From a virus (taxonomy: Duplodnaviria > Heunggongvirae > Uroviricota > Caudoviricetes): a stretch of DNA of 64,000 bases. Positions 18,590 through 64,000 of the stretch are shown here, one piece after another. How positions within the stretch are numbered: position 1 is the stretch's first letter; each line of letters opens with the position of its first letter. The position numbers were made by a program, and so were the translations under genes. The notes under the pieces are model-generated. The model did no database searches. It was not told where the DNA came from and worked only from the letters and a program-made list of their open reading frames with translations. The stretch covers positions 1 to 64,000 of the IMG/VR virus record IMGVR_UViG_3300010403_000021. One strand, written 5' to 3'.

Positions 18590-18612
18590 CTTCATATAAT
18601 GAAAGGTATAAA

Positions 18613-29433: not shown

Positions 29434-29438
29434 AAGTA

Positions 29439-29506: not shown

Positions 29507-29528
29507 ATTCAACAAGAGGAGTAATGTA

Positions 29529-31173: not shown

Positions 31174-31192
31174 ACAATCTTATGGGGATTTA

Positions 31193-47475: not shown

Positions 47476-47700
47476 ATGTTTAATGTACTGGAGATTGAAA
47501 TGGCGCTTATCAAGAACGGTTTCACCAAGATCATTCAGGGCGTTGAGTTTGTTCTGATTGGTGACACGATGGAAGTTATCAAGGATTACGTTCTTGTTGA
47601 CACTATTGATTGCACTGAGGATGGACTTCCGACTGTAAACACCGAATACGATTTCGATATGACTGCCATGTGGTGGCTGTACGAATACAACATGATTTAA
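47476..47700 (+). CDS. hypothetical protein
   Basis: SD GGAGGGG. Confidence 0.4.
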   Translation: MFNVLEIEMALIKNGFTKIIQGVEFVLIGDTMEVIKDYVLVDTIDCTEDGLPTVNTEYDFDMTAMWWLYEYNMI

Positions 47701-47708
47701 GGATAAAA

Positions 47709-48308
47709 ATGGATCTATTCGAGGCCTGGCCCAAAACTGCACGTGGTTTTGGGCCAGCTCTTTACACAGAAAAGCTTGATGGCTCAAATGTGGCTGTTAT
47801 CTTTGAACGTCGTTATGGTACTGAAGCATTTGCCGATATGAATAACGTTGTCATTAAAGATACAAACACCGGTGAATTGTTTATTATTCATGTGGCAGCC
47901 CAGACACGTACTCAAATGGCCTTTATTGAAGATGATCAAGTTGGTATTGCACAATGGGTTGCAGATCGTAAGTATAGTTTGGTTCGCGATCTATATAATT
48001 TCAACCGTGGTGCTGATCTTGAACGTCATTATGGTGAGTATGTCAAGGGCAAAGGTCTCAAAGTTCCACATGTCTTTCTGTTCAATGCTTACCGTTGGCG
48101 TGAGGCTGAGTTTGCCACTGAGGGGCTATCGGTTGTGCCGGTACTCTATGAGGGCGAACACTCTTACGAACAGCTTACAGACACGCTGAGAGACCTTGAG
48201 CTTAACGGCTCACGAGTGCTTGACTCACCAGCGGAAGGCGTGATAGTCTTCCACAAGAACGACAAGACATCCAAAAAGTACTTCTGCCAAGGACAAGGAC
48301 GAAAATAA
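47709..48308 (+). CDS. putative nucleotidyltransferase/ligase-like protein with KxDG motif
   Basis: YTEKLDGSNVAV resembles ligase/capping-enzyme motif I; short (199 aa). Confidence 0.3.
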   Translation: MDLFEAWPKTARGFGPALYTEKLDGSNVAVIFERRYGTEAFADMNNVVIKDTNTGELFIIHVAAQTRTQMAFIEDDQVGIAQWVADRKYSLVRDLYNFNRGADLERHYGEYVKGKGLKVPHVFLFNAYRWREAEFATEGLSVVPVLYEGEHSYEQLTDTLRDLELNGSRVLDSPAEGVIVFHKNDKTSKKYFCQGQGRK

Positions 48309-51525: not shown

Positions 51526-51933
51526 ATGTCTATTATAGAAGATGAACATACTGATTTTGTAGACGCAATGCGCAGCATTGTTGAAGCGCATCCAGACGTG
51601 ATCTACAAGCCAATGAGGAATTTCTATTTCTATAGTGATGGTAGTCCTGCTTGTTTGTTTGGTCACATATTCTTTCAACTAGGCATTACTCTTGATGACA
51701 TTGCTTATGCAACCAGCAATAACGTTAAGCTTATTGATGAAAGTATGCGTCTTGATCCAAACAGCGCTCGAATTCGTTTCGTTCTCAAGAGTCTTGGTTA
51801 TACTGAAAACTTCTATTCCGTTGCTGAAGTTGCTCAGATCTACCAGGATGAAAAGAAGAAATGGTCAGAAGTTCTAGAGGAATTTCGACTTGGACTTGTT
51901 CAGCGTGGGATTGCCAATATGTATTGGAGGTGA
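51526..51933 (+). CDS. hypothetical protein
   Basis: ORF. Confidence 0.4.
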   Translation: MSIIEDEHTDFVDAMRSIVEAHPDVIYKPMRNFYFYSDGSPACLFGHIFFQLGITLDDIAYATSNNVKLIDESMRLDPNSARIRFVLKSLGYTENFYSVAEVAQIYQDEKKKWSEVLEEFRLGLVQRGIANMYWR

Positions 51934-52234: not shown

Positions 52235-52411
52235 ATGGACGTCGTATTTATTGCCACTCACTCACGTGTTGAAATTATGGGATCACAAGCTCTTATTCAA
52301 AGATATGTTGATGCCATCAAGGGGCAACATGATCCTAGTTCTTACATGGAGAATTACTCACTAGCATCATCAAATAGTTCATATGATCCGATTATTTACT
52401 ACTGTAAATAA
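52235..52411 (+). CDS. small hypothetical protein (58 aa)
   Basis: strong SD AAAGGAG; not in track. Confidence 0.4.
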   Translation: MDVVFIATHSRVEIMGSQALIQRYVDAIKGQHDPSSYMENYSLASSNSSYDPIIYYCK

Positions 52412-52446
52412 TATTTAAATAATTATTTTGATGGTGGAATAAATAT

Positions 52447-52531
52447 ATATTGCTGTGATTTTTCATTTTCTTTCGTAATACTTATATAAATATATAATAT
52501 TGTGGCGATTTTTGGCTTTTCTTCGTAATGT
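52447..52531. repeat. imperfect direct repeat (~34 bp, ~80% identity) ATATTGCTGTGATTTTTCATTTTCTTTCGTAAT / ATATTGTGGCGATTTTTGGCTTTTCTTCGTAAT at the AT-rich/GC-rich junction
   Basis: aligned by eye; second copy abuts the composition switch. Confidence 0.5.
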
Positions 52532-52616
52532 CAATTCCATACAAAGGCTGGTCGCTGGCCACCACCGGGCACCGAGCACGCGCGCACGTGCAAATGATCA
52601 ACTTCGCGATTTGCAT

Positions 52617-53609
52617 ATGCTAAGAGATCAAACCGTGACCTTAGGGTTACCATTACGTGATCTAAAACATCGTTTTGTGGTTAGACTTGCGTTGCAAGCG
52701 CAGGCACACGGAGGAGATACGGACATGGTCAAGCTCTCGACTGTTCAGTTGGACCGGTTGCGGTTTCTGGGGTACTCGGAACGTGGCGCATTGGGTGGCA
52801 CCCGAAAGGCGACCATTGCCAAGCTCATGACGCTTGGTTTCATCCGTGACAACGGCAGGCTGTTCCGGTCATACGAGATCACTCCGGAAGGCATTGACCA
52901 CCTGCTGTCTGTTGTGCCGAACGCACCGATTCACACCAGCCACATGGGACCGGTTGTCATCGGTGCCTATGTGATCCACAACGGTCGGACTGGTGTCGTT
53001 CGCAAGATGCACGTCACTGAAAACAACACCATTTTTGGCGGAGTTGTCGGTGTTGAATTCGATGACTCTGTTATCAAGTGCGAAATGATTTCTTTCCGTG
53101 AATTGGAAACGACTGCGGCACGTTCAGCGGTTCACTTTCGCGAGGGTAGAGAAGGTCACGGGGATTCCCGTAGTTGGACCCGTTTGCTCAATGGCAAGCT
53201 GTACAGCTTCAACGTGGTGAACATGCCCAATGGTGAGGTGCGTTGGTTTGTTTCCATTTACAACGGTTACATTGGCGGGCCAAAATTCGCGTGTGCATGG
53301 TCGCGTGTTCGGCAGTGGACTTTCACTGCTGTTCAGCCCGTGCCTACCAAGTGGGTTGCCGAGCGCAACGGGCTGAACCTTTGGCGTGACGAGGATAAGG
53401 CAATGGCCTATCAGTCAACGCCAGTGTTTGACACTCGATTCGGTGCGTTGGGTGCATTGACTGCCATGCTCACCGATGAAATCAGCGGATGGAAGCGTAT
53501 GGGTAAGGACGCCACGCGCGATGAATTGATCTTGTCCGATGTCATCGGACATCCGAACCGTAACGAGTGGTCCGCTGGAAACGTTCAGTGGTCGATTCGC
53601 GGTTGGTGA
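52617..53609 (+). CDS. hypothetical protein, GC-rich (start uncertain; track ORF starts at TTG 52500 inside the repeat)
   Basis: long ORF with GC-rich codon usage. Confidence 0.45.
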   Translation: MLRDQTVTLGLPLRDLKHRFVVRLALQAQAHGGDTDMVKLSTVQLDRLRFLGYSERGALGGTRKATIAKLMTLGFIRDNGRLFRSYEITPEGIDHLLSVVPNAPIHTSHMGPVVIGAYVIHNGRTGVVRKMHVTENNTIFGGVVGVEFDDSVIKCEMISFRELETTAARSAVHFREGREGHGDSRSWTRLLNGKLYSFNVVNMPNGEVRWFVSIYNGYIGGPKFACAWSRVRQWTFTAVQPVPTKWVAERNGLNLWRDEDKAMAYQSTPVFDTRFGALGALTAMLTDEISGWKRMGKDATRDELILSDVIGHPNRNEWSAGNVQWSIRGW

Positions 53610-53631
53610 TCATTACATAGATAGACAATGG

Positions 53632-53658
53632 ATCTAAGCGGCCCCAACGTCAACGGCG
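53632..53658 (+). terminator. 10-bp hairpin GGCCCCAACG-TCAACGG-CGTTGGGGCC
   Basis: perfect inverted repeat 23 nt after stop. Confidence 0.5.
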
Positions 53659-53659
53659 T

Positions 53660-54850
53660 TGGGGCCTAGCTTTGCCTTAGAGCGTTTGCACATGCAAAAC
53701 AGGCTGCTATTCGCCCTCTAAGGCGTTGGGGTGGTCCTACCCATACAAAGACCCTAGGAAGCTATAAAAGTCGCTCTATGGCGAACATACAGGCCTTTAA
53801 GGGGCATTGTGGAGCACCTCGGCTCACACGCGTGCACAGGTGCATGATTGGACGTACTGATCAGTAACATGCGCACGCCATGTGCAGTAGCAAATCTGAC
53901 CAATTTCTAAGCCTGTGACCAGCGGAAACTCCGTCAGCGGCCTAACGCCGTTGGGGTGGTATGGATGTACCGGGGAAGGCTTTAAAGCGCTTAGCGTGGC
54001 TCTGAGAGGCCTTTACGGCGATATGGCCAGTCGACGCCTAGAGCATCAAATATGGTAACAACGCGGTAACTTATACATCAGTGGTCTATGCATCAAATGT
54101 TGATCAAGCTCTGACCTGCACAAACACCGTTAGCAAAAGAAAATCCTTGACTCAATGGGGGCCTGTGGTGCGTACTTGTGGAGCACCACGAACACCACAA
54201 CTCAAAACGCCAGACACGGGAACCCTTAGACGTCAAGGGTTTGAGAGCTAGTAGCAACACTACGTGTCACGGATACCGAGTTGACAGCCTAAACTGAATT
54301 TGCTACCTTTAAGGCCCCGCAAGGGGACGCACCACCCGCTAGCTCCCCAAAAGGGAACTTGGAAGCCTCACGACACGGCTTAGGGACGATTGAACTTTGA
54401 GAACTCAATAGCGAGCAAAGCCTAGTGAACAGGTGCGCTGATTACACGGACAGTCCCCGTGTACACCATTACCCTTGCGGGATGCAAGCGTGGCAGCAAT
54501 AGACCGAAGCGACTAGGGAGGCAATCCGACATATATTGTCCAAGCGTTCCGAGTATGCGAGTGCCGGACCAATCATGAGTCCCCCGCATAAATCCGCTTG
54601 GATAAAGATTATGAGGAATGTCTGACATAAGGTAAATCGCTTAGGGGCCGGTGATCCGCCCAATGCGCTTAAGACATATAGCGATTACCTGGCAGTATGG
54701 GATACCAGGTTTGGGGAATCAAATAAAGGTTTCCGGTGGTTCGATTCCACTCACTCTCACTAGCCCATTGGTGTATAAGCCTGACATTAAATCGGGAAAG
54801 CACAGTCATTCCCTAAAAAGGAGTGAGAGACCGGAATTAACCGGATGGGT
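53660..54850. other. ~1.2-kb GC-rich region without credible ORFs; contains repeated CGTTGGGG(TGG) motifs and a tRNA T-arm-like GGTGGTTCGATTCCACT (54735-54751)
   Basis: six-frame track shows only short or low-complexity ORFs; repeats at ~53649, 53722, 53947. Confidence 0.5.
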
Positions 54851-55015
54851 GTTAACTAAACGAAAAGAGAGTCAATTGCTCACCGTTGCTTTGCTGCTGA
54901 TTGTTCCGGTGATCGGTAAGGCTGTTTACGACACTCGCCTTACCGCAGACGAAAACGCGAACAATGACACCACCATTTTCGGTGAGTCGATTTACAACCC
55001 GGAAGGGTAATCGAA

Positions 55016-55249
55016 ATGAACTTTAGGCACATGGCCGATTTCATCGCTCACAACGGCACTGACGACGTTGACCTTTACCGCCGACACGTCAAGGCATGTG
55101 TCATTGCGGATGACAGCGGAGCGTTTCCGTTGTTTCCCGAATGGTTCGGCATCTACTACGCCGAAATGAACGTCGACTACGGTTTCAAGACGCGTCTTAT
55201 CCGGCGTCTCAAGTTCATCAAAGCTGCTTTCACGGGAAAGGTTGCCTGA
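55016..55249 (+). CDS. hypothetical protein
   Basis: ORF, GC-rich codon usage. Confidence 0.45.
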   Translation: MNFRHMADFIAHNGTDDVDLYRRHVKACVIADDSGAFPLFPEWFGIYYAEMNVDYGFKTRLIRRLKFIKAAFTGKVA

Positions 55250-55250
55250 C

Positions 55251-55520
55251 ATGCGCGTTGTCATTAAGGAATACAAGGGTCCGGGTGGGGAAATTCTGGA
55301 CTTGCTCAACGTGCTGGTGTTTCCGGATCGGGCAAACAACGTCGGTCGTATGGCCGATGTGCGGGGTGCGGACAACCGTAAGCCGCGTTCGTGGCAGATC
55401 ATGTGTGCAATCGGAGAGACGGAAACGTTCAACTCTACCGAAATGCTCTACATGGTTCGGAACGTTCACACCGGGCAGTGGACGATTGCGTTTCTGTCCG
55501 AACTCGGAAACCTCTACTAG
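55251..55520 (+). CDS. hypothetical protein
   Basis: ATG one nt after upstream TGA. Confidence 0.45.
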   Translation: MRVVIKEYKGPGGEILDLLNVLVFPDRANNVGRMADVRGADNRKPRSWQIMCAIGETETFNSTEMLYMVRNVHTGQWTIAFLSELGNLY

Positions 55521-55602
55521 CTAGGATTCCCTACGGTATTTATTGGTCCGTGCATTCGATTGCGAATAGGGAGCGCATTAACAATCGATGAAAGGTTGTC
55601 TA

Positions 55603-55872
55603 ATGACCATTCTCATGACTCCCGGTAAAACCCTTGACGAGTGCAAGGTCGAACAGATCAGCAAGACGCCTGCACTTCAGTGGGTCATTGACCACGTGGT
55701 GCACGGTGCAGTGGTGACCACTCACGGCATGTGCGGTTTGGTCGCTGCTGAACCGCGTACGGCCAGCAATGGCGCTTCGATGTTCCACTGCTACGGTTGC
55801 AACCTGACCCGCGTGGCAATGGAATTCCGTCCACAACCGTACAAGATCACCCGTTACGACTTTCTTTACTAG
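55603..55872 (+). CDS. hypothetical protein
   Basis: SD AAAGG. Confidence 0.4.
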   Translation: MTILMTPGKTLDECKVEQISKTPALQWVIDHVVHGAVVTTHGMCGLVAAEPRTASNGASMFHCYGCNLTRVAMEFRPQPYKITRYDFLY

Positions 55873-55880
55873 GGGTCACA

Positions 55881-56240
55881 ATGTACGAAGACGCGCATTT
55901 GGATGCCTCTTATGAGGATCGTTTCGCTGATGAGGTCTACTTTGGTAACGGACCTGATTGGGACCTACGCGATTTTGACGATTTTGATAACGACGAAAAC
56001 GAATGTGAGGGGCACGAAAGTCTGAACGGTGGCGACATGGGAGTTACCCGCTACTGTGACGGCTCTTGTGTGGTTTCAGCCGCTCCATTGCATTCGGATT
56101 CCACACAGATTCACCGCGCTGCCAATGGTCACACCATGAGCTATCGAGTCAAGCCCAATGGTGACCTCAGTCAGCATGATGCGACATGCGTTTACGATTG
56201 TCGTGCGTGTCAGAATGGTGATCAGCGTCCGGATTGGTAA
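55881..56240 (+). CDS. acidic Cys-rich hypothetical protein
   Basis: internal ATG of track ORF 55797. Confidence 0.4.
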   Translation: MYEDAHLDASYEDRFADEVYFGNGPDWDLRDFDDFDNDENECEGHESLNGGDMGVTRYCDGSCVVSAAPLHSDSTQIHRAANGHTMSYRVKPNGDLSQHDATCVYDCRACQNGDQRPDW

Positions 56241-56312
56241 AGCTTTTAATTCCCTCGGTTTAGCCGTGGCATTCAATTGCAAGGGAATTGTTTCCAATGA
56301 AAGGTGACAACA

Positions 56313-56690
56313 ATGGGAACTCCTAAGATCAATAGCACCGACGCCGCGTTCATTTACACTTTGGGCATGGTGGTCGGTGCTAACCCTGACAAGATCTACA
56401 CCATGCCCAATGAAATTGGGTGTGCCTACGTGCACCATGTCGACGGTGGTGGCCTGTGTGACGGCTGTCTGATCGGGACGGTACTCGTCAAGATGGGTGT
56501 GCCACGTGAGTGGTTCATTGAGGTAGACGCCAACACTGGCAAGGGTGCTGGTCTGGTGTTGGCGCAGTTCGGTTTCAGTCGTGAAATCGGCATCGCTGCT
56601 GATCGAGCGCAGAACGTGCAAGATGGCGGATCACCGTGGTGGCGAGCCGGTGAGGAATTCCTTTACACCTACGCTCAAATCAAGGCCTAG
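56313..56690 (+). CDS. hypothetical protein
   Basis: ORF. Confidence 0.45.
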   Translation: MGTPKINSTDAAFIYTLGMVVGANPDKIYTMPNEIGCAYVHHVDGGGLCDGCLIGTVLVKMGVPREWFIEVDANTGKGAGLVLAQFGFSREIGIAADRAQNVQDGGSPWWRAGEEFLYTYAQIKA

Positions 56691-56813
56691 CAACAAAGTC
56701 GGGCGCGACTTTAAACACGCCGGACGGATAATGGTTAATAGGGTTCATGGCCTATTCAAAGGTTCGATTCCTTTGGTCCGTACTCATGTAAAAGCTAAAT
56801 TGGAGGAAAGTAA

Positions 56814-57296
56814 ATGGCTCTTAGGTCCATTACCTCTTACATGTCAGGGGCTTTCAAGAGTCCTGGTGACCTTTTCAATGATGCTTTCGAATTCCTGGCA
56901 GATAAGGAATTCGATACGATGATCGGGACCGGTCTTTCCGGATCACTGATCATTCCGGTTTTGGCCAGGGAATTCGGTTCAGATTTCAATTGGGCCATCA
57001 TTCGCAAAGATCCTGGCAGCTCTCATGCCTCTACCGAATTGGAAGGGTATATCGGTAAGCGTTGGATTTTTGTAGATGATCTGATCGATTCCGGCGCAAC
57101 TTTGAAGCGTGTTAAGCAGGTGGTTGCTGATCGCTGCAAGGCTAATTCCTACTGGGACGGACATAAGACCGAATATGTGGGTACGTACCTTTACCACACA
57201 CGGCGTTGGTATCCCGCTGATCACCAGGTGGGCTATTACGTGAATTGCCGTTGTTTGACGTGTGATGCCTTAGAATCACGTCGTTACTCCTACTGA
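56814..57296 (+). CDS. type I phosphoribosyltransferase-domain protein
   Basis: RWIFVDDLIDSGATL PRPP-binding motif; GTGLSGSLIIPVLA flexible-loop region. Confidence 0.6.
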   Translation: MALRSITSYMSGAFKSPGDLFNDAFEFLADKEFDTMIGTGLSGSLIIPVLAREFGSDFNWAIIRKDPGSSHASTELEGYIGKRWIFVDDLIDSGATLKRVKQVVADRCKANSYWDGHKTEYVGTYLYHTRRWYPADHQVGYYVNCRCLTCDALESRRYSY

Positions 57297-57310
57297 ACAA
57301 AAAGTAAATA

Positions 57311-57423
57311 GAGGATATAGTTCAATTGGATTAGAATAACTAGCATAAGATACATCCCCACACATTGAATTGGGATGAATAGCTTATGTTAGATAGATGA
57401 GGGTTCGAGTCCCTCTATCCTCG
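57311..57423 (+). ncRNA. AT-rich extended tRNA-like gene (113 nt): perfect acceptor GAGGATA/TATCCTC, D-arm, T-arm GAGGGTTCGAGTCCCTC; anticodon position replaced by a 10-bp stem plus inner hairpin
   Basis: folded by eye; 10-bp helix CTAGCATAAG/CTTATGTTAG encloses ATCCC-13nt-GGGAT. Confidence 0.4.
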
Positions 57424-57879
57424 CTACCCTTAATGGGTATTGTTAAATAGTTCGGCTTCCCGCGCTTTTGCCCGGAAAACAAGTGTAAGCCCGAATGCGA
57501 ATAGCATTGGTCACTAGGTTGGCTACTACGGTCCCAATCGACACGGCTGTATGCGTGATTCGAGCCGTCAATTACCTTGCTCATGTGCATATACTCTATG
57601 ACGGTAAAGAGTTGGAAAGTGTGCACCGTAGGCGTTATCGATTGCGCGACAATATAAATGTCGGTGTGGAGACGCAAAGTCCAATGCGCTATCAATATGG
57701 TCATTGACCTGACAGTTAGCACTAGGGCGATACCACTTGAGTGGGAGTCAGAGAAACATAAGCAATTGATAAGCGACCTTTAGGAGATAATAAAAACAAG
57801 CGGCGGTTATATCATTATATTATGGTATCGCTAAGTGCGGGACAAATAAACAAAACCCGCTTTAACGAAAGGCGTAACA

Positions 57880-58107
57880 ATGGATCTTGCTAAAGTGCAA
57901 AAGCTAAATGCCGCTGCACATTCTCTTGATTCTTGGGTAGAGACGCTAGCGTTTTACGTTGAAAATCCTACGGCGGTTCCGAATAGAGCGGCTACCACGT
58001 TTGCAACACGTGAGGAATTCATTGAGCACATCGGTTGCATGATTGGACACTATCAAGACGAATTCAATGCCGCGTACAACGATATTCCGGAATGGGTGAG
58101 TAAATGA
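57880..58107 (+). CDS. hypothetical protein
   Basis: ORF. Confidence 0.45.
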   Translation: MDLAKVQKLNAAAHSLDSWVETLAFYVENPTAVPNRAATTFATREEFIEHIGCMIGHYQDEFNAAYNDIPEWVSK

Positions 58108-58589
58108 CTAAGCTGACTCCCGCTGCCAAGCGTTATGCGCTGGAATTGGTCAAGCGCCGGAAGATTCAAGATGAGCACGCAAATTGCGTTCAGCCTGGTT
58201 TTGTCGTCAGATACGGCGTGCGGCTCAATGACAATGATGAATTTGTCGAGCGTCCTTACAGCGTGCCAACGTATGAAACCGACCATCACAATAACTGCCA
58301 ACTGGCACGCATCATTCCCCGGAACTACTGCCGACACGGAAATTTTGTTGGCGACCCGTGGGGACCTGATTACATGTGCGGGTTTTGTGAGAATGGAGAC
58401 GATCTCTCACTGTATGAAATCGCATTGGACGATGCGAGAGAACATCAGCGGCGTCTCACCGAACACGTGGTTGAACGCGCACAAAAGGCAGTGCTAGAGG
58501 AACTAGTTTCGATCTATAAAGCCGATGCCAATATGGCCGAATGGATTGACCCTGATGTAATCGCAAAGTTGGTCCGCGCTGGTGACTGA
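58104..58589 (+). CDS. Cys/His-rich hypothetical protein
   Basis: ATGA overlap. Confidence 0.45.
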   Translation: MTKLTPAAKRYALELVKRRKIQDEHANCVQPGFVVRYGVRLNDNDEFVERPYSVPTYETDHHNNCQLARIIPRNYCRHGNFVGDPWGPDYMCGFCENGDDLSLYEIALDDAREHQRRLTEHVVERAQKAVLEELVSIYKADANMAEWIDPDVIAKLVRAGD

Positions 58590-58913
58590 CGTGTATGGCT
58601 TAAGGTGCCCTAGAGACTCCACACAGCCTCTAGACGCGCCTAGGGTGCACGTACCCTACCCGAGACCATTTGATCTTGTTACAGACGAAATGAGCGGCCA
58701 ATGTTCATCTTGATTGCGAACGTCGTGAGCAATGATGGAATCGTCGAAACAAAGGAATACGCGGACTTTCCTTTTGTTCCCGCCATGCACACTAACTTTT
58801 TGGTGCGCAACACGTTGATTGCCATTGATCGAGTTGATATCGATCCGATTGGTCTGGCCGGAACTCCCATTGTGACCATTAGTGGCAGGGTCACCCGATA
58901 GCAAAGGATTGTC

Positions 58914-59279
58914 ATGTATCTGTTGGTGATCACTGCTCCCGAGACTGGTCACACTAAGTCCATTCGGGTGGCTGACACGGAAAACATTCCCCTTTGGGCT
59001 GAATTCGATAAGGTTTGTGAGGCTGAAAAGGAATATCGAACGATCACCGTGTGGGATGTCGAAAAGAACGGCAGTCTCTATTCTTACACGGTGAATCGCC
59101 CCTCACGAACGCCTGAGCCCATCGATATGCAAAAGGTTGACGAGTGGGTTAAGGAATATCTGATGAACGAACGGGGTGAAATCAGTAAGATTCAAATGAT
59201 CAAGCTGACCCGTGAGCGATTCAACGGCCTGGGGCTTAGGGAAGCATTGGCCATTGTTCAGCCTTATTTCGTCTGTTAG
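58914..59279 (+). CDS. hypothetical protein (possible partner of downstream Fic)
   Basis: ORF; 8 nt upstream of fic start. Confidence 0.45.
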   Translation: MYLLVITAPETGHTKSIRVADTENIPLWAEFDKVCEAEKEYRTITVWDVEKNGSLYSYTVNRPSRTPEPIDMQKVDEWVKEYLMNERGEISKIQMIKLTRERFNGLGLREALAIVQPYFVC

Positions 59280-59287
59280 GGGAGATA

Positions 59288-59758
59288 ATGAATCTGGCAC
59301 GTGTTGCGGCCATCGCGGCAGATGAGGCAATCAGGCAAAAGGTTGGCATCAAGGGGTTCGCTGACTTGCTTAAGGCTTATGAGTTGGCGTCTCACATGTC
59401 CGCATATGGCACGTTGCAAGAATTGGACGTGTTGGCCATTGCTGCCCGTGTGAATGGCCTTGATCTGATTGACTACCGTCATACTCCAGTCACGTTTCCG
59501 AACATGACGGTTGCTCCGCATCACAGCATTATCCCAAACGCAATGCGTTCTATGTTCGCATTGGTCAAATTCATTGGGTCTAGCCATCCCGATGACGCAA
59601 ACGTTATTGACTCGACTGTAGACGGATGGATTAAGAACTTTCTTGACATTCATCCTTTCATTGATGGCAATGGCAGAACGGCATGGATTCTGCGAACGTG
59701 GTTGCTGAATCAGTGGGATTACCCATTCCCATTGCCCAATTACTACGGTGAGGCTTAA
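59288..59758 (+). CDS. Fic/Doc-family protein
   Basis: HPFIDGNGRTAWIL = Fic motif HPFx[DE]GNGR. Confidence 0.75.
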   Translation: MNLARVAAIAADEAIRQKVGIKGFADLLKAYELASHMSAYGTLQELDVLAIAARVNGLDLIDYRHTPVTFPNMTVAPHHSIIPNAMRSMFALVKFIGSSHPDDANVIDSTVDGWIKNFLDIHPFIDGNGRTAWILRTWLLNQWDYPFPLPNYYGEA

Positions 59759-59911
59759 ATGAATATCAACCCGCGTGCGTTGGTTCTGTTGTCAACCATG
59801 ATGTTCACTACGGCAATGTTCGCTTGGAAGCTTGCCGGACCATATTGGGTGACCATGCTCATTCTCACCATTGTTTACGGTCTGTTTCTTTCCCTGGTGA
59901 CTGTGAACTGA
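59759..59911 (+). CDS. small membrane protein (50 aa)
   Basis: ATG overlaps fic stop (TAAATGA); 2 TM; not in track. Confidence 0.35.
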   Translation: MNINPRALVLLSTMMFTTAMFAWKLAGPYWVTMLILTIVYGLFLSLVTVN

Positions 59912-60045
59912 TGACATGATTTATCGAATAGGGAGGCACATTCGAAAGTATTCACTAGTATATTTCCTTTTCTTTGTGCTTATTGCAATGTGCACTCTGA
60001 TTACGCTCAAGCAATATTCTATTCTTTCTACCTAAGGGGTTTCAA

Positions 60046-60210
60046 ATGTCGGTGCTCAACGTCACTGCCGGTAAGTTCATCACCGTTGCCGGTATCCGAC
60101 GCAAGGTGTTCGCGGTCTACCCCGTCAAGGGCGCCCGTTGGTTCCTGGTGAACGACGTCAACGGCAACCGCAAGCCCGTGATCTACAGCAACTCCCACGT
60201 TTTCGCCTGA
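60046..60210 (+). CDS. small hypothetical protein (54 aa)
   Basis: SD AAGGGG; followed by terminator hairpin. Confidence 0.4.
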   Translation: MSVLNVTAGKFITVAGIRRKVFAVYPVKGARWFLVNDVNGNRKPVIYSNSHVFA

Positions 60211-60239
60211 TAGTCGCTTTAAACCAAACCAATAGATAG

Positions 60240-60268
60240 GGGCACCGATCAAAACAAATCGGTGCCCC
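60240..60268 (+). terminator. 11-bp hairpin GGGGCACCGAT-CAAAACAA-ATCGGTGCCCC
   Basis: perfect inverted repeat. Confidence 0.5.
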
Positions 60269-60292
60269 CTTAACCCAAAAGGGGTAAAGAAA

Positions 60293-61009
60293 ATGACCGA
60301 TATCGTTAACACTGAGACTGCCACCGTTGTCAAGCCGCTTGTTTATGACAAGGATGCGCGCTCCGTGCGTATCGAGAATGCGGACGATTTCCGTGTGGCT
60401 GCGAAGTTCTTTGGCATTCCCGTTAAGGCTGCTGGTCGCCTGCCGTTCAAGGCCCTTGCTCAGCACGTTCTGCGGCTGAATTGGGCCATTGTGCCCACTG
60501 ACCTTTTCAACAATTCGGTTGCGCTGGGCGGCACGACTAGTGTTCCCAAGGATAAGAGCGTAGAGACCGTGTGGAACGTGAGCTACCGCAAGGTGCACGC
60601 CAACGGCGGAACGGGTCCGATTCAGACGGCTACGGTCACGCTGGCCGATGTCCGTAAGCACACGGGCGAAAAGGCAGGGCGAATTGGTCCCAAGCGCGTC
60701 ATGGTGGCGCTTGCTGCCAAGCTTGAGACGACGTTGGACAAGCTGACCACGGCGGGGCACACGTTCGCCAATGCGCAGTCTGAGGACATCACTACGGCCA
60801 TGCTGGCTGGCACGGTGAGCGAGGTAGACCAGACTCCCGTTCCGGTGGTTGAGGTCAAGTCCGATGAATCCGCCGATTCGACCGGATGCTTGGTTGGCGC
60901 GGTACTGGCCGAGGGTGAGCACGCTACCGACGAGCAGATCACTGCGGCCATCGCTGCTGGTGAGTCTGAGACTGACGACAGTGAGACCCGCGCTGCTGTT
61001 CTGGTCTGA
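60293..61009 (+). CDS. hypothetical protein with acidic C-terminus
   Basis: strong SD AAAGGGGTAAAG; preferred over antisense ORF 60158-60922. Confidence 0.5.
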   Translation: MTDIVNTETATVVKPLVYDKDARSVRIENADDFRVAAKFFGIPVKAAGRLPFKALAQHVLRLNWAIVPTDLFNNSVALGGTTSVPKDKSVETVWNVSYRKVHANGGTGPIQTATVTLADVRKHTGEKAGRIGPKRVMVALAAKLETTLDKLTTAGHTFANAQSEDITTAMLAGTVSEVDQTPVPVVEVKSDESADSTGCLVGAVLAEGEHATDEQITAAIAAGESETDDSETRAAVLV

Positions 61010-61115
61010 CGTCTGCTAGACCGTTTTAATTAGAGGTTAGTTAGCTTGGCATTAGTGCTGCGCGATGCGTACTAATGCCTTGCTAGATATCCGACTGATT
61101 AGCGGAGGTAATTCA

Positions 61116-61367
61116 ATGTTCATGGACATGCCGGTTTTTAGCATGGATAATTTCACACCCGAATCCTATTATGAACATGATGGAATTCGGGTGGAAATCG
61201 AAAAGGTCGGCGGGGGAACTATTGGTAGGAAGTATATCGGCAATTGGTTTTACCGGGTGATTGTGCATGGTGTATGGACGACTAGTGGTAGTGACTATGT
61301 CACCAATACAGCCAAGTCACATCACCAGGTGGCTTTTGATCTTTGGGAATACTTTACTAGGGAGTAA
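61116..61367 (+). CDS. hypothetical protein
   Basis: SD GGAGG before internal ATG. Confidence 0.4.
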   Translation: MFMDMPVFSMDNFTPESYYEHDGIRVEIEKVGGGTIGRKYIGNWFYRVIVHGVWTTSGSDYVTNTAKSHHQVAFDLWEYFTRE

Positions 61368-61368
61368 A

Positions 61369-61638
61369 ATGCATAACGGATATTACTTTCACTTTTACAA
61401 TGGTGAAACGGATATTAGCGGTAGTATTCATGCGGAAGGTGATGCCGATTGTGCAATCATTTGGCATGAAATTGATGGTCACATCATGTCTTTTATTCCC
61501 GCCGGTTTTGGTTGGTGGCAAGCCGATGACATTACCGAATCATTCGGTTACGGCTATGACCACTGGCGAAACCAGGAATTCGATTCAATGGAATCAGCCC
61601 TGGCGGCTATTATTGAAGCCGCTTTGATGTGCGTTTAG
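61369..61638 (+). CDS. hypothetical protein
   Basis: ORF. Confidence 0.4.
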   Translation: MHNGYYFHFYNGETDISGSIHAEGDADCAIIWHEIDGHIMSFIPAGFGWWQADDITESFGYGYDHWRNQEFDSMESALAAIIEAALMCV

Positions 61639-61646
61639 GGGATTGA

Positions 61647-61973
61647 ATGACCACTAAAGTCAAGGTGGAAAAGCGCACGCTTAAGCCCGGTGATTTGATC
61701 ACGCTTGAGTTTGCCTTTCACTCACTGATGAAAGCAAAGGTGATTGGTAAGGGTTGTCAGTATTTTGATGAGCGTAGAGATAGTGTGCGTGTTGTCATGA
61801 CTGCTGGTTACCCTGATTATTGGAAGGGTCGCATTATTGAGGTGCCGCGCTCTACCATTCGATTCCGTGATTTGGTGAATGAAAGGCGTATGCGTGCCGT
61901 TGCGTGGCCTTTCAATTGTGAATGGGATACTGAACCCGTTTCATGCGGTATCAGCGACGGCTATTACGATTAG
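61647..61973 (+). CDS. hypothetical protein
   Basis: ORF. Confidence 0.45.
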   Translation: MTTKVKVEKRTLKPGDLITLEFAFHSLMKAKVIGKGCQYFDERRDSVRVVMTAGYPDYWKGRIIEVPRSTIRFRDLVNERRMRAVAWPFNCEWDTEPVSCGISDGYYD

Positions 61974-61981
61974 GGGATTCA

Positions 61982-62230
61982 ATGCTTGACATTGCTGAAA
62001 TTGAAAAGCTTTTGGAACCGGTTGGCGATAAGCCGTATCAGCGGTTTGTGTGGGATTACATTGGTAACGAAACGCGTACCGTTGTTTATGATATGCATCA
62101 TGGGGGAAGGGAAGTAGCAACCTTTCTCAATGGCATCGCTGCGCAAATGGTGTGTAGTGATTGGAACGCCAGGCATGACAACGGTGAACGGCTTTACACC
62201 TTGGGTACCGGTGTGGATGGGGAGGACTAG
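61982..62230 (+). CDS. hypothetical protein
   Basis: ORF. Confidence 0.4.
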   Translation: MLDIAEIEKLLEPVGDKPYQRFVWDYIGNETRTVVYDMHHGGREVATFLNGIAAQMVCSDWNARHDNGERLYTLGTGVDGED

Positions 62231-62664
62231 TGCACATTTTCGGCGTCGGCGCTCAAACGGCCCGTGAGCAACTGATTCGGGTTGGTAATGCCCACTATGA
62301 CCGGAACCTGTACGTCAAGGCAGCGACCAGTCTGGACACCCGCAACGGTGAACGGTGCCGTATCACGTTGGGTGTTCATAGCTCACGTGCCAAGGGTGCC
62401 AGGCGTGCGGCTAGTGGTCGGTTGTGCGCTGCGCCATGCTGGCACGCCCATTACGATGTCATGTACGCCATTTTGAAGACCAACCCAGATGCGCGTATTA
62501 CCACTAGCCGTATTGGTGACATTGTTTACAACGGGTTGAGTGATTTCCTGTTGAGTGCACCCAATACCGCATATATCAATGTGGGCAATTACATGCAAAT
62601 TGCTTATCTGTGTGAATGCGACCATGACAACTGGGTATCGGCAATTGGACTGGTGAACGCATGA
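62230..62664 (+). CDS. hypothetical protein (GTG start)
   Basis: SD GGAGGA before GTG. Confidence 0.4.
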   Translation: MHIFGVGAQTAREQLIRVGNAHYDRNLYVKAATSLDTRNGERCRITLGVHSSRAKGARRAASGRLCAAPCWHAHYDVMYAILKTNPDARITTSRIGDIVYNGLSDFLLSAPNTAYINVGNYMQIAYLCECDHDNWVSAIGLVNA

Positions 62665-63038
62665 ATTCCAAGCAACTCGGTAAGTGGTTGGCCTGCAATA
62701 TCGCTTTTCAGGATGACCACTTGCAACACTTGGGTAGTCAAGGGCTTGATCGGGCTGACATCTCAACGATTCTGCGCGCGTTGGTGGATGGTAACTATAT
62801 CAATCCCGAAAGCTACGATCATTGGGACCTGGATAAGGTTCTAAAGGATATGAATGTGGTGTGCTGGGCTGATCGCGAGAGCTACGCACGCAATTTCGCC
62901 GATGTCGACGATGAATTCAATCCTTTCCATATGCCCAGTTGGGTGGAAATTGATTGGAAGTCGAGTGCCGACAATCTTTTGCAAGACATTCCGGTAATCG
63001 AATTGGGCGACCAATTTGTAACCTTTTACGAGGGGTGA
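62661..63038 (+). CDS. hypothetical protein
   Basis: ORF. Confidence 0.45.
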   Translation: MNSKQLGKWLACNIAFQDDHLQHLGSQGLDRADISTILRALVDGNYINPESYDHWDLDKVLKDMNVVCWADRESYARNFADVDDEFNPFHMPSWVEIDWKSSADNLLQDIPVIELGDQFVTFYEG

Positions 63039-63040
63039 CA

Positions 63041-63154
63041 ATGTGCACCTATTGTGTTCACTGTAGTTGCATCATTGAATTTTACCGGGGGCTTTGGTGG
63101 GATGTTACTGACGATTTCATGTGTCCCAATGGTGAAAACGAACATAAGCCTTAA
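63041..63154 (+). CDS. tiny Cys-rich protein (37 aa)
   Basis: CTYCVHCSC...C. Confidence 0.25.
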   Translation: MCTYCVHCSCIIEFYRGLWWDVTDDFMCPNGENEHKP

Positions 63155-63162
63155 GGATCAAT

Positions 63163-63558
63163 ATGAACCTGACGCGTGAATCAATCGGTGATGCTTTGGA
63201 CGTCTATGCTAAGCATCATGGCTCTACGGTCTATGAAATGCCGGGGTCAGAGTGCAAGTATGTCGAATGGGATTTTGACACTTGCACTTTGGTTGGTGGT
63301 TGTCTCTACGGGCATGTCATGACGGATCTAGGGATGTCTCTGGAGACGCTGGCAGACAACTGGGAAGGCAAAGAAATTAATGCCATTCTCAAGTCATACG
63401 GTGTCGATGACGCACGACTGATCAATGCAGCCTTGTGCAGTCAAAGGGTGCAAGACACGTGCGAATTGAGTTGGGCACATGCCGTACAGACGTTTCACGC
63501 AATTCTAGAACTCGGTACGCGTGACATCGATGCAAATGCCATCTATGGCAATGATTGA
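63163..63558 (+). CDS. hypothetical protein
   Basis: ORF. Confidence 0.45.
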   Translation: MNLTRESIGDALDVYAKHHGSTVYEMPGSECKYVEWDFDTCTLVGGCLYGHVMTDLGMSLETLADNWEGKEINAILKSYGVDDARLINAALCSQRVQDTCELSWAHAVQTFHAILELGTRDIDANAIYGND

Positions 63559-63579
63559 GTAGTTAGCGCGTATGCATCA

Positions 63580-63651
63580 CATTTAGCGCCGGTAAACGCC
63601 AAAAACGCTAAAAGTGCCGGGTAGATAAATGTGATGCATAGGCATAAACAC
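63580..63651. repeat. 15-bp perfect inverted repeat TATGCATCACATTTA ... TAAATGTGATGCATA separated by ~42 nt, at the right edge of the GC-rich island
   Basis: read directly; composition returns to AT-rich downstream. Confidence 0.55.
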
Positions 63652-63674
63652 TCAAACTTAAGGGGATAAATGCA

Positions 63675-63833
63675 ATGCTGGATGTTATCTATCTATTGGT
63701 GGGTTGGTGTTTTGTATCCATTTCCACAGTTGGCGTAGTAGCACTACCCGTAGGTTTTATTTGCTGTGTCATCAGTGATGCCAAACAAGCAAGGGGTAAT
63801 AATGCGAGCAGTAAGCATCGAATCATTTATTGA
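63675..63833 (+). CDS. small membrane protein (52 aa)
   Basis: not in track. Confidence 0.25.
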   Translation: MLDVIYLLVGWCFVSISTVGVVALPVGFICCVISDAKQARGNNASSKHRIIY

Positions 63834-63987
63834 GATTAAGTATGGTGATCCAATCAAGGATTACAATGGAAATAAATGGATTTTCGCCGGGGTGAGTGGA
63901 AAAGAGGTAGTAGTTCTAAAGAAAGGTAGTGATGTATTGCAAGTAATGTATCCAAGTATCTTTGATTTGATGCTGCTGGAGGTTTAA
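63802..63987 (+). CDS. hypothetical protein
   Basis: SD AAGGGG before ATG. Confidence 0.35.
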   Translation: MRAVSIESFIEIKYGDPIKDYNGNKWIFAGVSGKEVVVLKKGSDVLQVMYPSIFDLMLLEV

Positions 63988-64000
63988 TAATAGTCTGCCT

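What the first reader, a model, noticed from the sequence alone, without database searches (positions are those of the whole stretch)
52447..63651. 11-kb GC-rich island inside an AT-rich phage genome, bounded by a direct repeat on the left and a 15-bp inverted repeat on the right
Composition jumps from ~37% to ~56% GC within ~40 bp at 52.5 kb and returns to AT-rich at ~63.6 kb. The left edge carries two imperfect copies of a ~34-bp sequence (52447-52480 and 52497-52531). The right edge carries a perfect 15-bp inverted repeat (63580-63594 and 63637-63651). The island is all + strand and holds a Fic/Doc protein, a PRTase, an AT-rich tRNA-like gene and a 1.2-kb non-coding block, with no integrase or transposase. 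This is consistent with a horizontally acquired cassette, possibly from a high-GC actinophage, or an unusual mobile element. An assembly chimera must be excluded.
Basis: seen in the sequence. Interest (0 to 1): 0.75.

Follow-up and report, generated by a model that had tools for sequence, protein, structure and literature searches.

The report
Conserved GC-rich end module of actinophage
The 11-kb GC-rich stretch is real, but it is not a recent foreign insert or an assembly error: it is an old, conserved part of this family of large tRNA-rich phages of actinobacteria, matching the GC-rich genome-end block (the long terminal repeat in some members) already noted in their cultured Streptomyces relatives.

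Summary
It is not a chimera. Both edges lie inside single contigs, and three other phage lineages at 70-92% nucleotide identity carry a GC-rich block between the same flanks. The backbone is a distant, low-GC relative of the Stanwilliamsviridae (cluster BE) Streptomyces phages. Those phages also have one GC-rich block at the same map position. In Riptide that block is exactly the 10.7-kb direct terminal repeat, and a 2021 paper noted the same for other BE phages. One island gene has a homolog inside Beuffert's block. The shift is mostly at synonymous sites (GC3 0.31 to 0.54, with A-ending codons halved). It is stable across lineages despite heavy synonymous divergence, so it is maintained, not decaying. 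Inside, gene cassettes (PRTase plus a tRNA-like gene, Fic and others) come and go between lineages. Both edge elements are conserved: a tandem-repeat region plus leader on the left, and a hairpin with compensatory changes on the right. The 1.27-kb gene-free block holds a probable ~0.75-kb structured RNA with no Rfam match. Whether the block is duplicated in virion DNA cannot be told without reads. Verdict: new member of a known kind, moderate interest.

The parts
51526..51933 (+). phrog_572-family gene in the AT-rich backbone, about 600 bp upstream of the island. It is a paralog of two island genes.
   Evidence: Pairwise BLASTP E = 3e-5 to 6e-8. phrog_572 E = 9.5e-10. The same three positions are occupied in relative L005.
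52439..52535 (+). Left-edge control region: two tandem ~47-50-nt AT-rich units with an invariant core, G.GA.TTTT...TTCGTAA.
   Evidence: It is conserved as 2-3 units in all four lineages and occurs nowhere else in the window.
52536..52724 (+). Highly conserved GC-rich leader running up to the start codon of gene 1.
   Evidence: It has long invariant runs across four lineages, while the neighbouring coding DNA is ~72% identical. The consensus fold has 5 pairs with double changes.
52725..53609 (+). Gene 1 (294 aa, no family match). Its position is conserved and its sequence is highly divergent (32-35% aa identity between lineages).
53680..54420 (+). Core of a probable large structured non-coding RNA.
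   Evidence: Stops in all six frames. The + strand fold has z = -5.2, the - strand z = -1.7. Invariant runs of up to ~50 nt across four lineages. 142 pairs, of which 16 have double changes, against 5.9 +/- 1.8 in shuffles and 0-5 in slid controls. No Rfam family at E <= 1.
54644..54775 (+). 5'-truncated remnant of a tRNA-like gene (T-arm at 54738-54748). The gene is intact in the relatives.
   Evidence: ARAGORN calls tRNA-Thr(cgt) at L019 4715-4800 and an aberrant tRNA at L005 5145-5229.
54876..55010 (+). Small conserved hydrophobic peptide gene (44 aa, ...IGKAVYDTR...).
   Evidence: The reading frame is conserved in all four lineages, while the upstream part of the long ORF is broken by stops in the relatives.
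55016..55872 (+). Three small conserved genes (77, 92 and 94 aa) of unknown function.
   Evidence: 87-96% aa identity to L003. No family match.
55881..56240 (+). Variable cassette (119 aa). The mosaic breakpoint and the contig junction (55893-55909) lie at its start.
   Evidence: L005 has a different 1.6-kb cassette here. The ENA and Logan contigs end and start here with 13 and 17 nt of overlap.
56304..56690 (+). phrog_572-family paralog, mid-island.
56725..56785 (+). Cryptic tRNA-like element lacking a D-arm (T-arm at 56761-56771). The PRTase cassette is inserted exactly at its 3' end.
56786..57423 (+). Indel cassette: PRTase gene (56814-57296) plus a tRNA-like gene (57311-57423) whose anticodon arm is a 16-bp extended hairpin. 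The cassette is absent from relative L005.
57880..59279 (+). Small genes of unknown function (75, 161, 66 and 121 aa), partly replaced or absent in the relatives.
59288..59758 (+). Small Fic-domain protein (motif HPFIDGNGRTAW). In L005 only the last 20 codons remain.
60293..61009 (+). The most GC-rich gene (238 aa, GC 0.60, GC3 0.69). It is present in all four lineages with the same GC3.
61065..63038 (+). Small genes of unknown function, including 62230-62664 (144 aa). That gene has homologs in Beuffert's GC-rich block and inside the terminal repeat of Arthrobacter phages.
63163..63558 (+). phrog_572-family paralog, the last gene of the island.
63568..63643 (+). Right-edge hairpin: conserved base and internal region, with a distal stem that differs in every lineage but is always complementary.
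   Evidence: z = -5.8 and -6.2. Compensatory changes in four lineages, including a compensated 2-nt insertion.

Best explanation
The island is this phage lineage's conserved terminal accessory module. It is the counterpart of the GC-rich block at the end of the long rightward arm in Stanwilliamsviridae (cluster BE) Streptomyces phages, which in the BE1-type phages is the ~11-kb direct terminal repeat.

SHOWN:
- It is one co-oriented block. It starts at a conserved tandem-repeat region plus leader and ends at a conserved hairpin.
- It holds small genes (Fic, PRTase, three phrog_572 paralogs and many ORFans), a large structured RNA and tRNA-like elements.
- Its cassettes are exchanged rapidly, while its borders and its composition are kept.
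- The GC excess is a codon-level property that is maintained over long evolutionary time.

INFERRED (mechanism): these are genes expressed at the very start of infection of a high-GC actinobacterial host, before the phage's own tRNAs accumulate. Many of those tRNAs read A-ending codons. Selection therefore keeps the block's codons host-like, above all by avoiding A-ending codons. New cassettes are tolerated only if they are GC-rich, or they come from GC-richer actinophages.

NOT SETTLED: whether the block is physically duplicated at both ends of the virion DNA in this phage.
For: RELATEDNESS. rIIA is 39% identical to cluster BE phages. There are collinear homologs of Ro-like, rIIA/B, phosphoesterase, RNA ligase, PNK, WhiB, thioredoxin and Lsr2-like genes in Beuffert and Riptide. 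The same leftward ThyX block follows the island, as it does after the terminal repeats of Beuffert and Riptide.

SAME FEATURE IN RELATIVES. Beuffert's only sustained GC outlier is 123.4-129.1 kb, at 0.546 against 0.474, and it ends at the 812-bp terminal repeat. Riptide's 10,690-bp terminal repeat has GC 0.51-0.60 against ~0.48-0.49 elsewhere. PMC8612146 reports 54.4% against 47.0% for the BE terminal repeat, comparing Coruscant with Mildred21. PMC5764925 documents 10.7-11.5-kb repeats.

SHARED GENE. Island gene 62230-62664 matches Beuffert gene 269, which lies inside that block (E = 2.8e-11). The same family also lies in the 20.5-kb terminal repeat of Arthrobacter phage Racecar.

ANTIQUITY. 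Four lineages carry the block between the same flanks.

MAINTAINED, CODON-LEVEL COMPOSITION.
- GC3 is 0.31 against 0.54 in the window, 0.48 against 0.63 in Beuffert and 0.53 against 0.68 in Riptide.
- A at four-fold sites is halved in every case.
- Island spacers rise only from 0.395 to 0.44.
- Orthologs keep the same GC3 although their four-fold identity has fallen to 0.44-0.56.

PHAGE tRNAs. Codons whose use falls in the island include AGA, CTA, AAA, CCA, GCA and GGA, all of which are read by phage-encoded tRNAs.

UNIT STRUCTURE. All genes are on the + strand. The edge elements are conserved and show covariation.

PRECEDENT. Phage tRNAs have been proposed to serve late genes (PMC12482277).
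Against: - No expression data exist, so 'early' is an inference from position and from analogy with T5 and SPO1 (own knowledge).
- No sigma-70-type or actinobacterial-type promoter conserved in two phages was found at the left edge.
- The host is unknown. It is inferred to be an actinobacterium only from the WhiB and Lsr2 homologs and from the relatives.
- Only 1 of 22 island proteins has a detectable homolog in the cultured relatives' blocks.
- In Riptide the block's genes face the other way.
- The Lsr2-like gene that sits in the BE1 terminal repeat lies outside the island here, at 45748-46134.
- Racecar's terminal repeat has no GC offset.
- The overall fraction of codons that are Watson-Crick cognate to the window's tRNAs is the same in backbone and island, 0.320 against 0.314.
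- The stronger loss of A than of T at four-fold sites is clear in the window and Riptide but weak in Beuffert.
- Structured RNAs and the leader inside the island are also GC-rich (0.52-0.53), so not all of the excess is codon usage.
Confidence: 0.62

Rival explanations
1. Recent horizontal acquisition of the whole 11-kb block from a high-GC actinophage or bacterium, or an unusual mobile element that inserted between the repeats. The 'block transfer' suggested for BE phages in PMC8612146 is the ancient version of the same idea.
For: Both compositional borders are sharp. The PRTase's closest deposited homologs are in Mycobacterium and Gordonia phages at ~40% identity. Most island proteins have no homolog in the cultured relatives. 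Cassette-level gain and loss is visible.
Against: The block is present between the same flanks in four lineages, and a GC-rich block occupies the same map position in phages with only 39% identical rIIA. GC3 is identical among orthologs despite near-saturated synonymous divergence, so there is no sign of amelioration. There is no recombinase. The direct repeat is not split between the two edges. A gene family (phrog_572) spans the border. An ancient single transfer would have equilibrated long ago unless something maintains the composition (inference).
Confidence: 0.1
2. The block has the same identity (a conserved terminal module, possibly the terminal repeat), but its GC excess comes from recombination rather than from selection on translation. 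Terminal repeats and hyperplastic regions recombine in every cycle, and GC-biased gene conversion would raise GC there.
For: The island is a recombination hot spot: seven or more replaced or missing segments in 11 kb between two close lineages, and four-fold identity to L019 of 0.56 against 0.85 in the flanks. In Riptide the GC-rich block is exactly the terminal repeat. In Beuffert, A and T at four-fold sites fall almost equally. Spacers and RNA elements in the island are somewhat GC-enriched too.
Against: Spacers rise by only 4.5 points against 23 points at third codon positions. In the window and in Riptide, A-ending codons fall about twice as much as T-ending ones, which a strand-symmetric conversion bias does not predict. 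Beuffert's GC block lies outside its 812-bp repeat. Racecar's 20.5-kb repeat has no GC excess.
Confidence: 0.2
3. Assembly chimera: two unrelated genomes were joined at the GC steps.
For: The window does span a junction between two contigs of ENA assembly ERZ27256657, and likewise between two Logan contigs. The overlaps are only 13 and 17 nt.
Against: That junction is at 55.9 kb, inside the island, not at either GC step. The left step is internal to contig k141_5334993 and to Logan contig _11918641. The right step is internal to k141_4323171. A 139,461-bp contig that equals the two ENA contigs minus 13 nt exists in another source. An ORF reads intact across the junction. Three other lineages, from different samples, have both sides in the same order on single contigs.
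Confidence: 0.02

Closest known systems
GC-rich ~11-kb direct terminal repeat of cluster BE1 Streptomyces phages (Riptide, Mildred21, Coruscant; family Stanwilliamsviridae)
   Same: Size: 10.7 kb in Riptide against 11.0 kb here. The GC excess over the rest of the genome is +7 to +10 points there and +11 here, mostly at third codon positions with A3 halved. The position is the same: between the end of the tRNA/rIIA/RNA-ligase arm and the leftward ThyX block. Both consist of many small genes of unknown function next to a gene-free stretch of more than 1 kb. The backbones are homologous.
   Different: Duplication at both genome ends is documented there by read coverage and cannot be tested here. 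The gene orientation is opposite. No protein homolog with E < 1e-4 is shared with Riptide's repeat. The Lsr2-like gene is inside the repeat there and outside the island here. The backbone GC is 49-50% there and 39% here.
GC-rich right-end block of cluster BE2 phage Beuffert (123.4-129.1 kb)
   Same: It has the same orientation as the preceding arm. It starts after a ~0.9-kb stretch with no annotated gene. A few small rightward genes follow it, and then the leftward block. It shares one gene family with the island (gene 269 and 62230-62664). It is the only sustained GC outlier in that genome.
   Different: It is only ~5.8 kb long. It lies outside the terminal repeat, which is 812 bp and starts where the GC block ends. 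nhmmer finds no counterpart of the structured RNA, the leader or the hairpin.
Terminal-repeat host-takeover / pre-early modules of T5 (10.1 kb) and SPO1 (13.2 kb)
   Same: These are blocks of about 10-13 kb of small, co-oriented, mostly unknown genes at the genome end of large lytic phages. The sizes are cited in PMC5764925. That they act first in infection is established knowledge recalled from memory, not tested here.
   Different: There is no sequence homology. No early promoters were identified here. A GC offset is not a known feature of those modules. Terminal duplication is untested here.
Large ornate phage-associated RNAs next to tRNA genes (GOLLD, ROOL)
   Same: A non-coding RNA of ~0.75 kb with strand-specific stability and covariation, in a phage, immediately followed by a tRNA-like gene.
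   Different: There is no match to any Rfam family at E <= 1, including those two. It is known from only four closely related genomes. Nothing is known of its expression.

Membership tests
GC-rich terminal block of Stanwilliamsviridae-like (cluster BE) actinophages | Backbone homologous and collinear with cluster BE phages | tested here: met
   rIIA is 39% and rIIB 59% identical. There are collinear matches to Ro-like, phosphoesterase, RNA ligase, PNK, WhiB, thioredoxin and Lsr2-like genes, and the ThyX block follows.
GC-rich terminal block of Stanwilliamsviridae-like (cluster BE) actinophages | A single block of 6-11 kb with GC well above the rest of the genome, at the end of the rightward arm | tested here: met
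   Window 0.503 against 0.393. Beuffert 0.546 against 0.474. Riptide repeat 0.51-0.60 against ~0.49. Also seen in L005, L019 and L020.
GC-rich terminal block of Stanwilliamsviridae-like (cluster BE) actinophages | The block is duplicated at both ends of virion DNA (direct terminal repeat, 2x read coverage, defined ends) | not testable with these tools
   Only collapsed assemblies are available. Three full-length contigs break at different map positions, so the map is circular and some terminal redundancy must exist. Which segment is duplicated is unknown.
GC-rich terminal block of Stanwilliamsviridae-like (cluster BE) actinophages | Gene content shared with the block of cultured members | tested here: inconclusive
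   Only 1 of 22 proteins matches: 62230-62664 against Beuffert gene 269, E = 2.8e-11. None matches Riptide's repeat convincingly. Turnover is high even between close lineages.
Integrative genomic island / mobile element | Encodes an integrase, transposase or other recombinase | tested here: not met
   None found among 20 island proteins in Pfam or PHROGs.
Integrative genomic island / mobile element | Direct repeats, one at each end (att-like) | tested here: not met
   Both repeat units are at the left edge. No copy occurs at the right edge or within 2 kb beyond it.
Integrative genomic island / mobile element | Presence/absence polymorphism among close relatives (an empty site) | tested here: not met
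   All four lineages carry the block. Only internal cassettes are polymorphic.
T5/SPO1-type terminal host-takeover module | Small co-oriented genes of mostly unknown function in a ~10-kb terminal block | tested here: met
   There are 22-23 + strand ORFs of 44-294 aa; 17 have no family match.
T5/SPO1-type terminal host-takeover module | Strong early promoters; expression first in infection | tested here: inconclusive
   The promoter scans give nothing above chance and nothing conserved in two phages. Expression cannot be tested here.
tRNA (element 57311-57423) | Cloverleaf with a 7-nt anticodon loop | tested here: not met
   The acceptor, D and T arms score 43.9 bits in Rfam. However, 47 nt replace the 9 model positions of the anticodon loop and form a 16-bp extended hairpin. 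ARAGORN does not call it.
Fic/Doc (59288-59758) | Fic domain with motif HxFx(D/E)GNGRxxR | tested here: inconclusive
   The Pfam Fic score of 31.6 bits is above the cut-off of 24. The motif reads HPFIDGNGRTAW, so the last arginine is replaced by tryptophan (read directly).
GOLLD / ROOL or any other Rfam RNA (53680-54420) | Match to the family covariance model | tested here: not met
   No Rfam match at E <= 1 in 52300-64000 apart from the tRNA-like gene.

The most novel reading that the evidence does not exclude
The GC-rich block is a selection-maintained 'host-codon' module. In very AT-shifted, tRNA-rich phages of high-GC actinobacteria, the first genes expressed must be read with the host's tRNA pool (and might also escape Lsr2-type silencing of AT-rich DNA). 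The genome end is therefore held 7-11 GC points above the rest for the whole history of the family, whatever genes it carries. In addition, the block encodes a previously undescribed ~0.75-kb structured RNA followed by a tRNA-like gene, and it is closed by a hairpin whose distal stem is lineage-specific.
Probability: 0.3. Interest if true: 0.65.

Novelty: new member of a known kind. Interest (0 to 1): 0.45.

Why it matters
This turns an apparent foreign island into a family trait. The same GC-rich end block occurs in uncultured 39%-GC phages and in cultured 48-50%-GC Streptomyces phages, with almost no shared genes. That pattern argues against the published 'block transfer' idea and for a force that keeps this part of the genome GC-rich.

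If that force is translation by the host tRNA pool before phage tRNAs are available, the block would mark immediate-early genes by sequence alone in a large group of actinophages. It would also give a testable reason why these phages carry 25-48 tRNAs.

The block is also a compact place to look for host-takeover or anti-defence genes (Fic, PRTase, many ORFans), and it contains a candidate new large phage RNA.

For genome scanning, the practical lesson is that a sharp GC island in a phage contig can be a collapsed or conserved terminal module rather than horizontal transfer or misassembly.

Tried and rejected
- Megablast of 20 kb against deposited phages: no match.
- Concatenated tblastn of all island proteins: only the PRTase hit.
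- Stop-codon recoding as an explanation for the gene-free block: rejected, because all three stop codons are frequent in all six frames.
- tmRNA, group I/II intron, GOLLD or ROOL in the gene-free block: no Rfam hit at E <= 1 and no ARAGORN tmRNA.
- Within-genome blastp for paralogs at database-level E-values: missed the phrog_572 family, which an HMM then recovered.
- Promoters at the left edge: nothing above chance and nothing conserved.
- A copy of the left-edge repeat at the right edge: none.
- A hairpin like the right-edge one at Beuffert's terminal-repeat boundary, and comparable motifs at Riptide's true repeat boundaries: nothing comparable.
- Homologs of the RNA, leader or hairpin in Beuffert, Riptide or Racecar by nhmmer: none.
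- More carriers of the RNA: an exact 23-mer found only the known relative in viral contigs and nothing in genome contigs. A 24-mer found the same relative only.
- The metagenome scan with the 92-aa island protein returned only the known relative.
- Closing the circle of the window's own genome: the first protein is not conserved in the relative. The macro-domain gene upstream in the relative has more than 1000 homologs, and no copy could be assigned to the window phage. I abandoned this.
- YrlA-type Y RNA as the identity of the tRNA-like gene at 57311-57423: considered and set aside from memory of the YrlA topology (ends in the Ro-binding stem, not in the acceptor stem). Not tested.
- Racecar as a further example of a GC-rich terminal repeat: rejected, because its repeat has the same GC as the rest of the genome.
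- Structure prediction of island proteins: not attempted, because homologs are too few for a useful alignment and the result would not change the verdict.

Full report
1. WHAT IS IN THE SEQUENCE

The window is a stretch of a large phage genome, transcribed rightward throughout. It has 25 tRNA genes in the first 30 kb and genes for a Ro-like protein, rIIA/rIIB, RNA ligase and polynucleotide kinase.

GC is 0.393 over 1-52480, 0.503 over 52531-63560 and 0.392 over 63600-64000. The island is therefore real, but it is 39% to 50%, not 37% to 56%. The left step is abrupt: 0.26, then 0.48, then 0.51-0.58 in successive 200-nt windows. The window ends too soon to judge the right step. A contig that continues past the window stays at 0.32-0.44 for the next 3.7 kb. 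Gene by gene, GC3 is 0.31 +/- 0.07 before the island and 0.53 +/- 0.07 inside it (p = 5e-11).

The left-edge direct repeat is at the stated place: two tandem units at 52439-52485 and 52486-52535. The right-edge inverted repeat exists about 10 nt to the left of the stated coordinates, with perfect 15-nt arms at 63571-63585 and 63626-63640. The stated contents are also there:
- a Fic protein;
- a PRTase;
- an oversized tRNA-like gene that Rfam finds and ARAGORN does not;
- a gene-free block, 53610-54875;
- no recombinase.

2. NOT A CHIMERA

In ENA assembly ERZ27256657 the window corresponds to two contigs. Contig k141_5334993 is window 1-55905, and k141_4323171 starts at 55893. Two Logan contigs of SRR6185436 end at 55909 and start at 55893. 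This junction is inside the island. Both GC steps lie well inside single contigs. A 139,461-bp contig, exactly the two ENA contigs minus the 13-nt overlap, is on record in another source, and an ORF reads through the junction.

More decisively, three other lineages from other samples carry a GC-rich block between the same homologous flanks, each on a single contig: the 137.6-kb IMG/VR contig (L003/L005/L008), the 138.6-kb Logan contig (L019) and a 23.8-kb Logan contig (L020).

Why two assemblers with k = 141 and k = 31 both stop and start at the same bases, with overlaps shorter than k-1, remains unexplained. The spot coincides with a mosaic breakpoint at a gene boundary: the relative diverges at 55883. 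It could be a strain junction or a physical DNA end.

3. WHAT THE PHAGE IS

There is no close DNA relative among deposited phages. The proteins point to the Stanwilliamsviridae, the cluster BE Streptomyces phages. rIIA is 39% and rIIB 59% identical, and the Ro-like protein, phosphoesterase, RNA ligase, PNK, a WhiB-family factor, thioredoxin and an Lsr2-like protein occur in the same order. WhiB and Lsr2 are actinobacterial hallmarks (PMC8612146), so the host is very probably an actinobacterium. After the island come a few small rightward genes and then a leftward block with ThyX. That is exactly what follows the terminal repeat in Beuffert and Riptide.

4. THE SAME FEATURE IN THE CULTURED RELATIVES

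In Beuffert, 1-kb GC values average 0.477 +/- 0.024. The only sustained outlier is 123.4-129.1 kb, at 0.546. It lies at the right end of the same arm, begins after a ~0.9-kb stretch with no annotated gene, and ends where the 812-bp terminal repeat begins.

In Riptide, positions 1-10,690 are identical to 121,453-132,142. This direct terminal repeat is the GC-rich block, at 0.51-0.60 against about 0.48-0.49.

The literature had already seen this. PMC5764925 defines 10.7-11.5-kb terminal repeats in BE1 phages from two-fold read coverage. PMC8612146 reports 54.4% GC in the repeat against 47.0% elsewhere and proposes a block transfer.

Island gene 62230-62664 has a homolog inside Beuffert's block (E = 2.8e-11). 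It also has homologs, two per record, inside the 20.5-kb terminal repeat of Arthrobacter phages Racecar, Mimi and Talia1610. Racecar's repeat, however, has no GC offset.

The island is therefore the local version of a family feature.

5. COMPOSITION IS MAINTAINED AND IS CODON-LEVEL

The excess sits at third codon positions:

| Phage | GC3, rest of genome | GC3, GC-rich block |
|---|---|---|
| Window | 0.31 | 0.54 |
| Beuffert | 0.48 | 0.63 |
| Riptide | 0.53 | 0.68 |

GC1 and GC2 shift much less. At four-fold sites, A is halved in every block: 0.33 to 0.17, 0.28 to 0.14, 0.24 to 0.13, and 0.37 to 0.19 in L005. T falls by 22-48%. In the window, AGA, ACA, TTA, ATA, GTA, CTA, AAA and CCA drop two- to six-fold, while T-ending codons drop little.

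True spacers in the island have GC 0.44, against 0.395 for backbone spacers.

Orthologs in the four lineages keep the same GC3. Gene 60293-61009, for example, has 0.69, 0.71, 0.70 and 0.69, although four-fold identity has dropped to 0.72, 0.56 and 0.44. The island also diverges faster than its flanks, which stand at 0.81, 0.85 and 0.57.

A one-off import would have drifted toward the backbone over such distances. This is inference. Something keeps the block GC-rich.

6. ANATOMY

The block opens with 2-3 tandem units that share an invariant core in all four lineages. A ~170-nt leader follows, with long invariant runs.

Gene 1 keeps its place but is only 32-35% identical between lineages.

The gene-free block has a core, about 53,680-54,420, with these properties:
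- invariant runs of up to ~50 nt across the four lineages;
- a + strand fold far more stable than shuffled sequence (z = -5.2), while the - strand is not (z = -1.7);
- a consensus fold with 16 doubly changed pairs, against 5.9 +/- 1.8 in shuffles and 0-5 in slid controls.

The fold was derived from the same four sequences, so this support is suggestive only. No Rfam family matches.

After the core comes a tRNA-like gene that is intact in the relatives and 5'-truncated in the window. A 44-aa hydrophobic peptide gene follows, conserved in all four lineages.

Between the window and its closest relative, at least seven segments are replaced or missing. The PRTase plus tRNA-like cassette sits exactly at the 3' end of another cryptic tRNA-like element, and the relative shows the empty arrangement. 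Of Fic, the relative keeps only the last 20 codons.

A gene family (phrog_572) has one copy just outside the island, one in the middle and one as the last gene, in both phages.

The block closes with a hairpin that is very stable (z about -6). Its base and internal region are nearly invariant. Its distal 8-10 bp differ in each lineage and are always complementary, including a compensated 2-nt insertion.

7. MOST LIKELY EXPLANATION, AND WHAT IS STILL OPEN

Shown: the block is old, bounded by conserved elements, co-oriented, hypervariable in content and constant in composition. It corresponds in position to the GC-rich terminal block of the cultured relatives.

Inferred: it is the module that acts first in infection, as in the terminal repeats of T5 and SPO1 (own knowledge; the sizes are cited in PMC5764925). 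Its codons are kept compatible with a high-GC host's tRNA pool because the phage's tRNAs, many of which read A-ending codons, are not yet there. Precedent for a stage-specific role of phage tRNAs is in PMC12482277.

Rivals for the cause of the GC excess are GC-biased gene conversion in a recombination-hot region and steady influx of cassettes from GC-richer actinophages. The small rise in spacers and the stronger loss of A than of T speak for codon selection. Beuffert's nearly equal loss of A and T, and the GC-rich RNA elements, speak against it being the only cause.

Not settled: whether the block is duplicated in virion DNA. Three full-length contigs of 139.5, 137.6 and 138.6 kb break at different map positions. 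The assembly map is therefore circular, and some terminal redundancy must exist. Riptide suggests that the redundancy is the whole block. Beuffert suggests that it is a short segment just to the block's right.

8. VERDICT

But the block as a whole is neither recent, nor mobile, nor an artefact.

It is a new member of a known, though only briefly described, kind. Added value comes from the evidence that the composition is maintained, from the covarying edge elements and from a candidate new large RNA.

Noticed in passing
window 55893-55909: Two assemblers (MEGAHIT at k = 141, Logan at k = 31) both start the downstream contig at exactly 55893 and end the upstream one at 55905 and 55909. The overlaps of 13 and 17 nt are shorter than k-1. 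The spot is 12 nt inside gene 55881-56240 and coincides with a mosaic breakpoint in the relative. It may be a strain junction or a physical DNA end.
   Followed up: partly
window 5180-6784 and 7720-7730: A Ro60/TROVE plus vWA protein gene, with an uncalled tRNA T-arm motif about 1 kb downstream. This could be a Y-RNA-like (tRNA-mimicking) partner RNA.
   Followed up: no
window 422, 1370, 7720, 14531, 24689, 54738, 56761: The T-arm motif GGTTCGANTCC occurs 21 times, all on the + strand (0.05 expected by chance). Seven copies lie outside any tRNA called by ARAGORN or Rfam, so the genome is sprinkled with cryptic or decayed tRNA-like elements.
   Followed up: partly
window 57311-57423: A tRNA-like gene with normal acceptor, D and T arms, but with the anticodon arm replaced by a 16-bp hairpin with a 13-nt loop (fold z = -5.2). 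It is part of a cassette that is absent from the nearest relative.
   Followed up: partly
window 10204-10938, 31127-32260, 32634-33581, 47670-48308: A Thg1-like protein, two RNA ligases and a polynucleotide kinase. Together they look like a tRNA repair and maintenance kit alongside the tRNA array.
   Followed up: no
window 18493-18590 and 29438-29507: Odd ARAGORN calls: a 98-nt tRNA-Tyr, and a tRNA with a 2-nt 'anticodon' that Rfam also scores as a tRNA (44.5 bits).
   Followed up: no
L021 9573-15117 (about window 65.5-71 kb, beyond the window): The leftward block after the island encodes a HAD_SAK_2 protein, an Rv2179c-like exonuclease, an Acb5-family protein (Pfam PF26761) and ThyX.
   Followed up: no
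window 54876-55010: A 44-aa hydrophobic peptide gene (TTG start, ...IGKAVYDTR...) is conserved in all four lineages at the end of the gene-free block. The 119-aa ORF listed at 54651-55010 is spurious upstream of it.
   Followed up: yes
window 16077-17231 and 25485-27158: Two paralogous proteins (32% identity, E = 5e-12) with tail-fibre-like repeat matches sit in the middle of the tRNA region, far from any structural module visible in the window.
   Followed up: no
one search hit list (proteins P0007, P0010, P0041, P0062, P0072, P0087): Many metagenomic contigs of 132-139 kb carry a related macro-domain gene, so phages of this size class and kind form a sizeable uncultured group.
   Followed up: no
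L019 3008-3735 and L020 4906-5180: Two of the relatives have extra sequence, apparently a small gene, between gene 1 and the structured RNA, followed by a hairpin plus T-run. The window has only a hairpin there (53641-53668).
   Followed up: no
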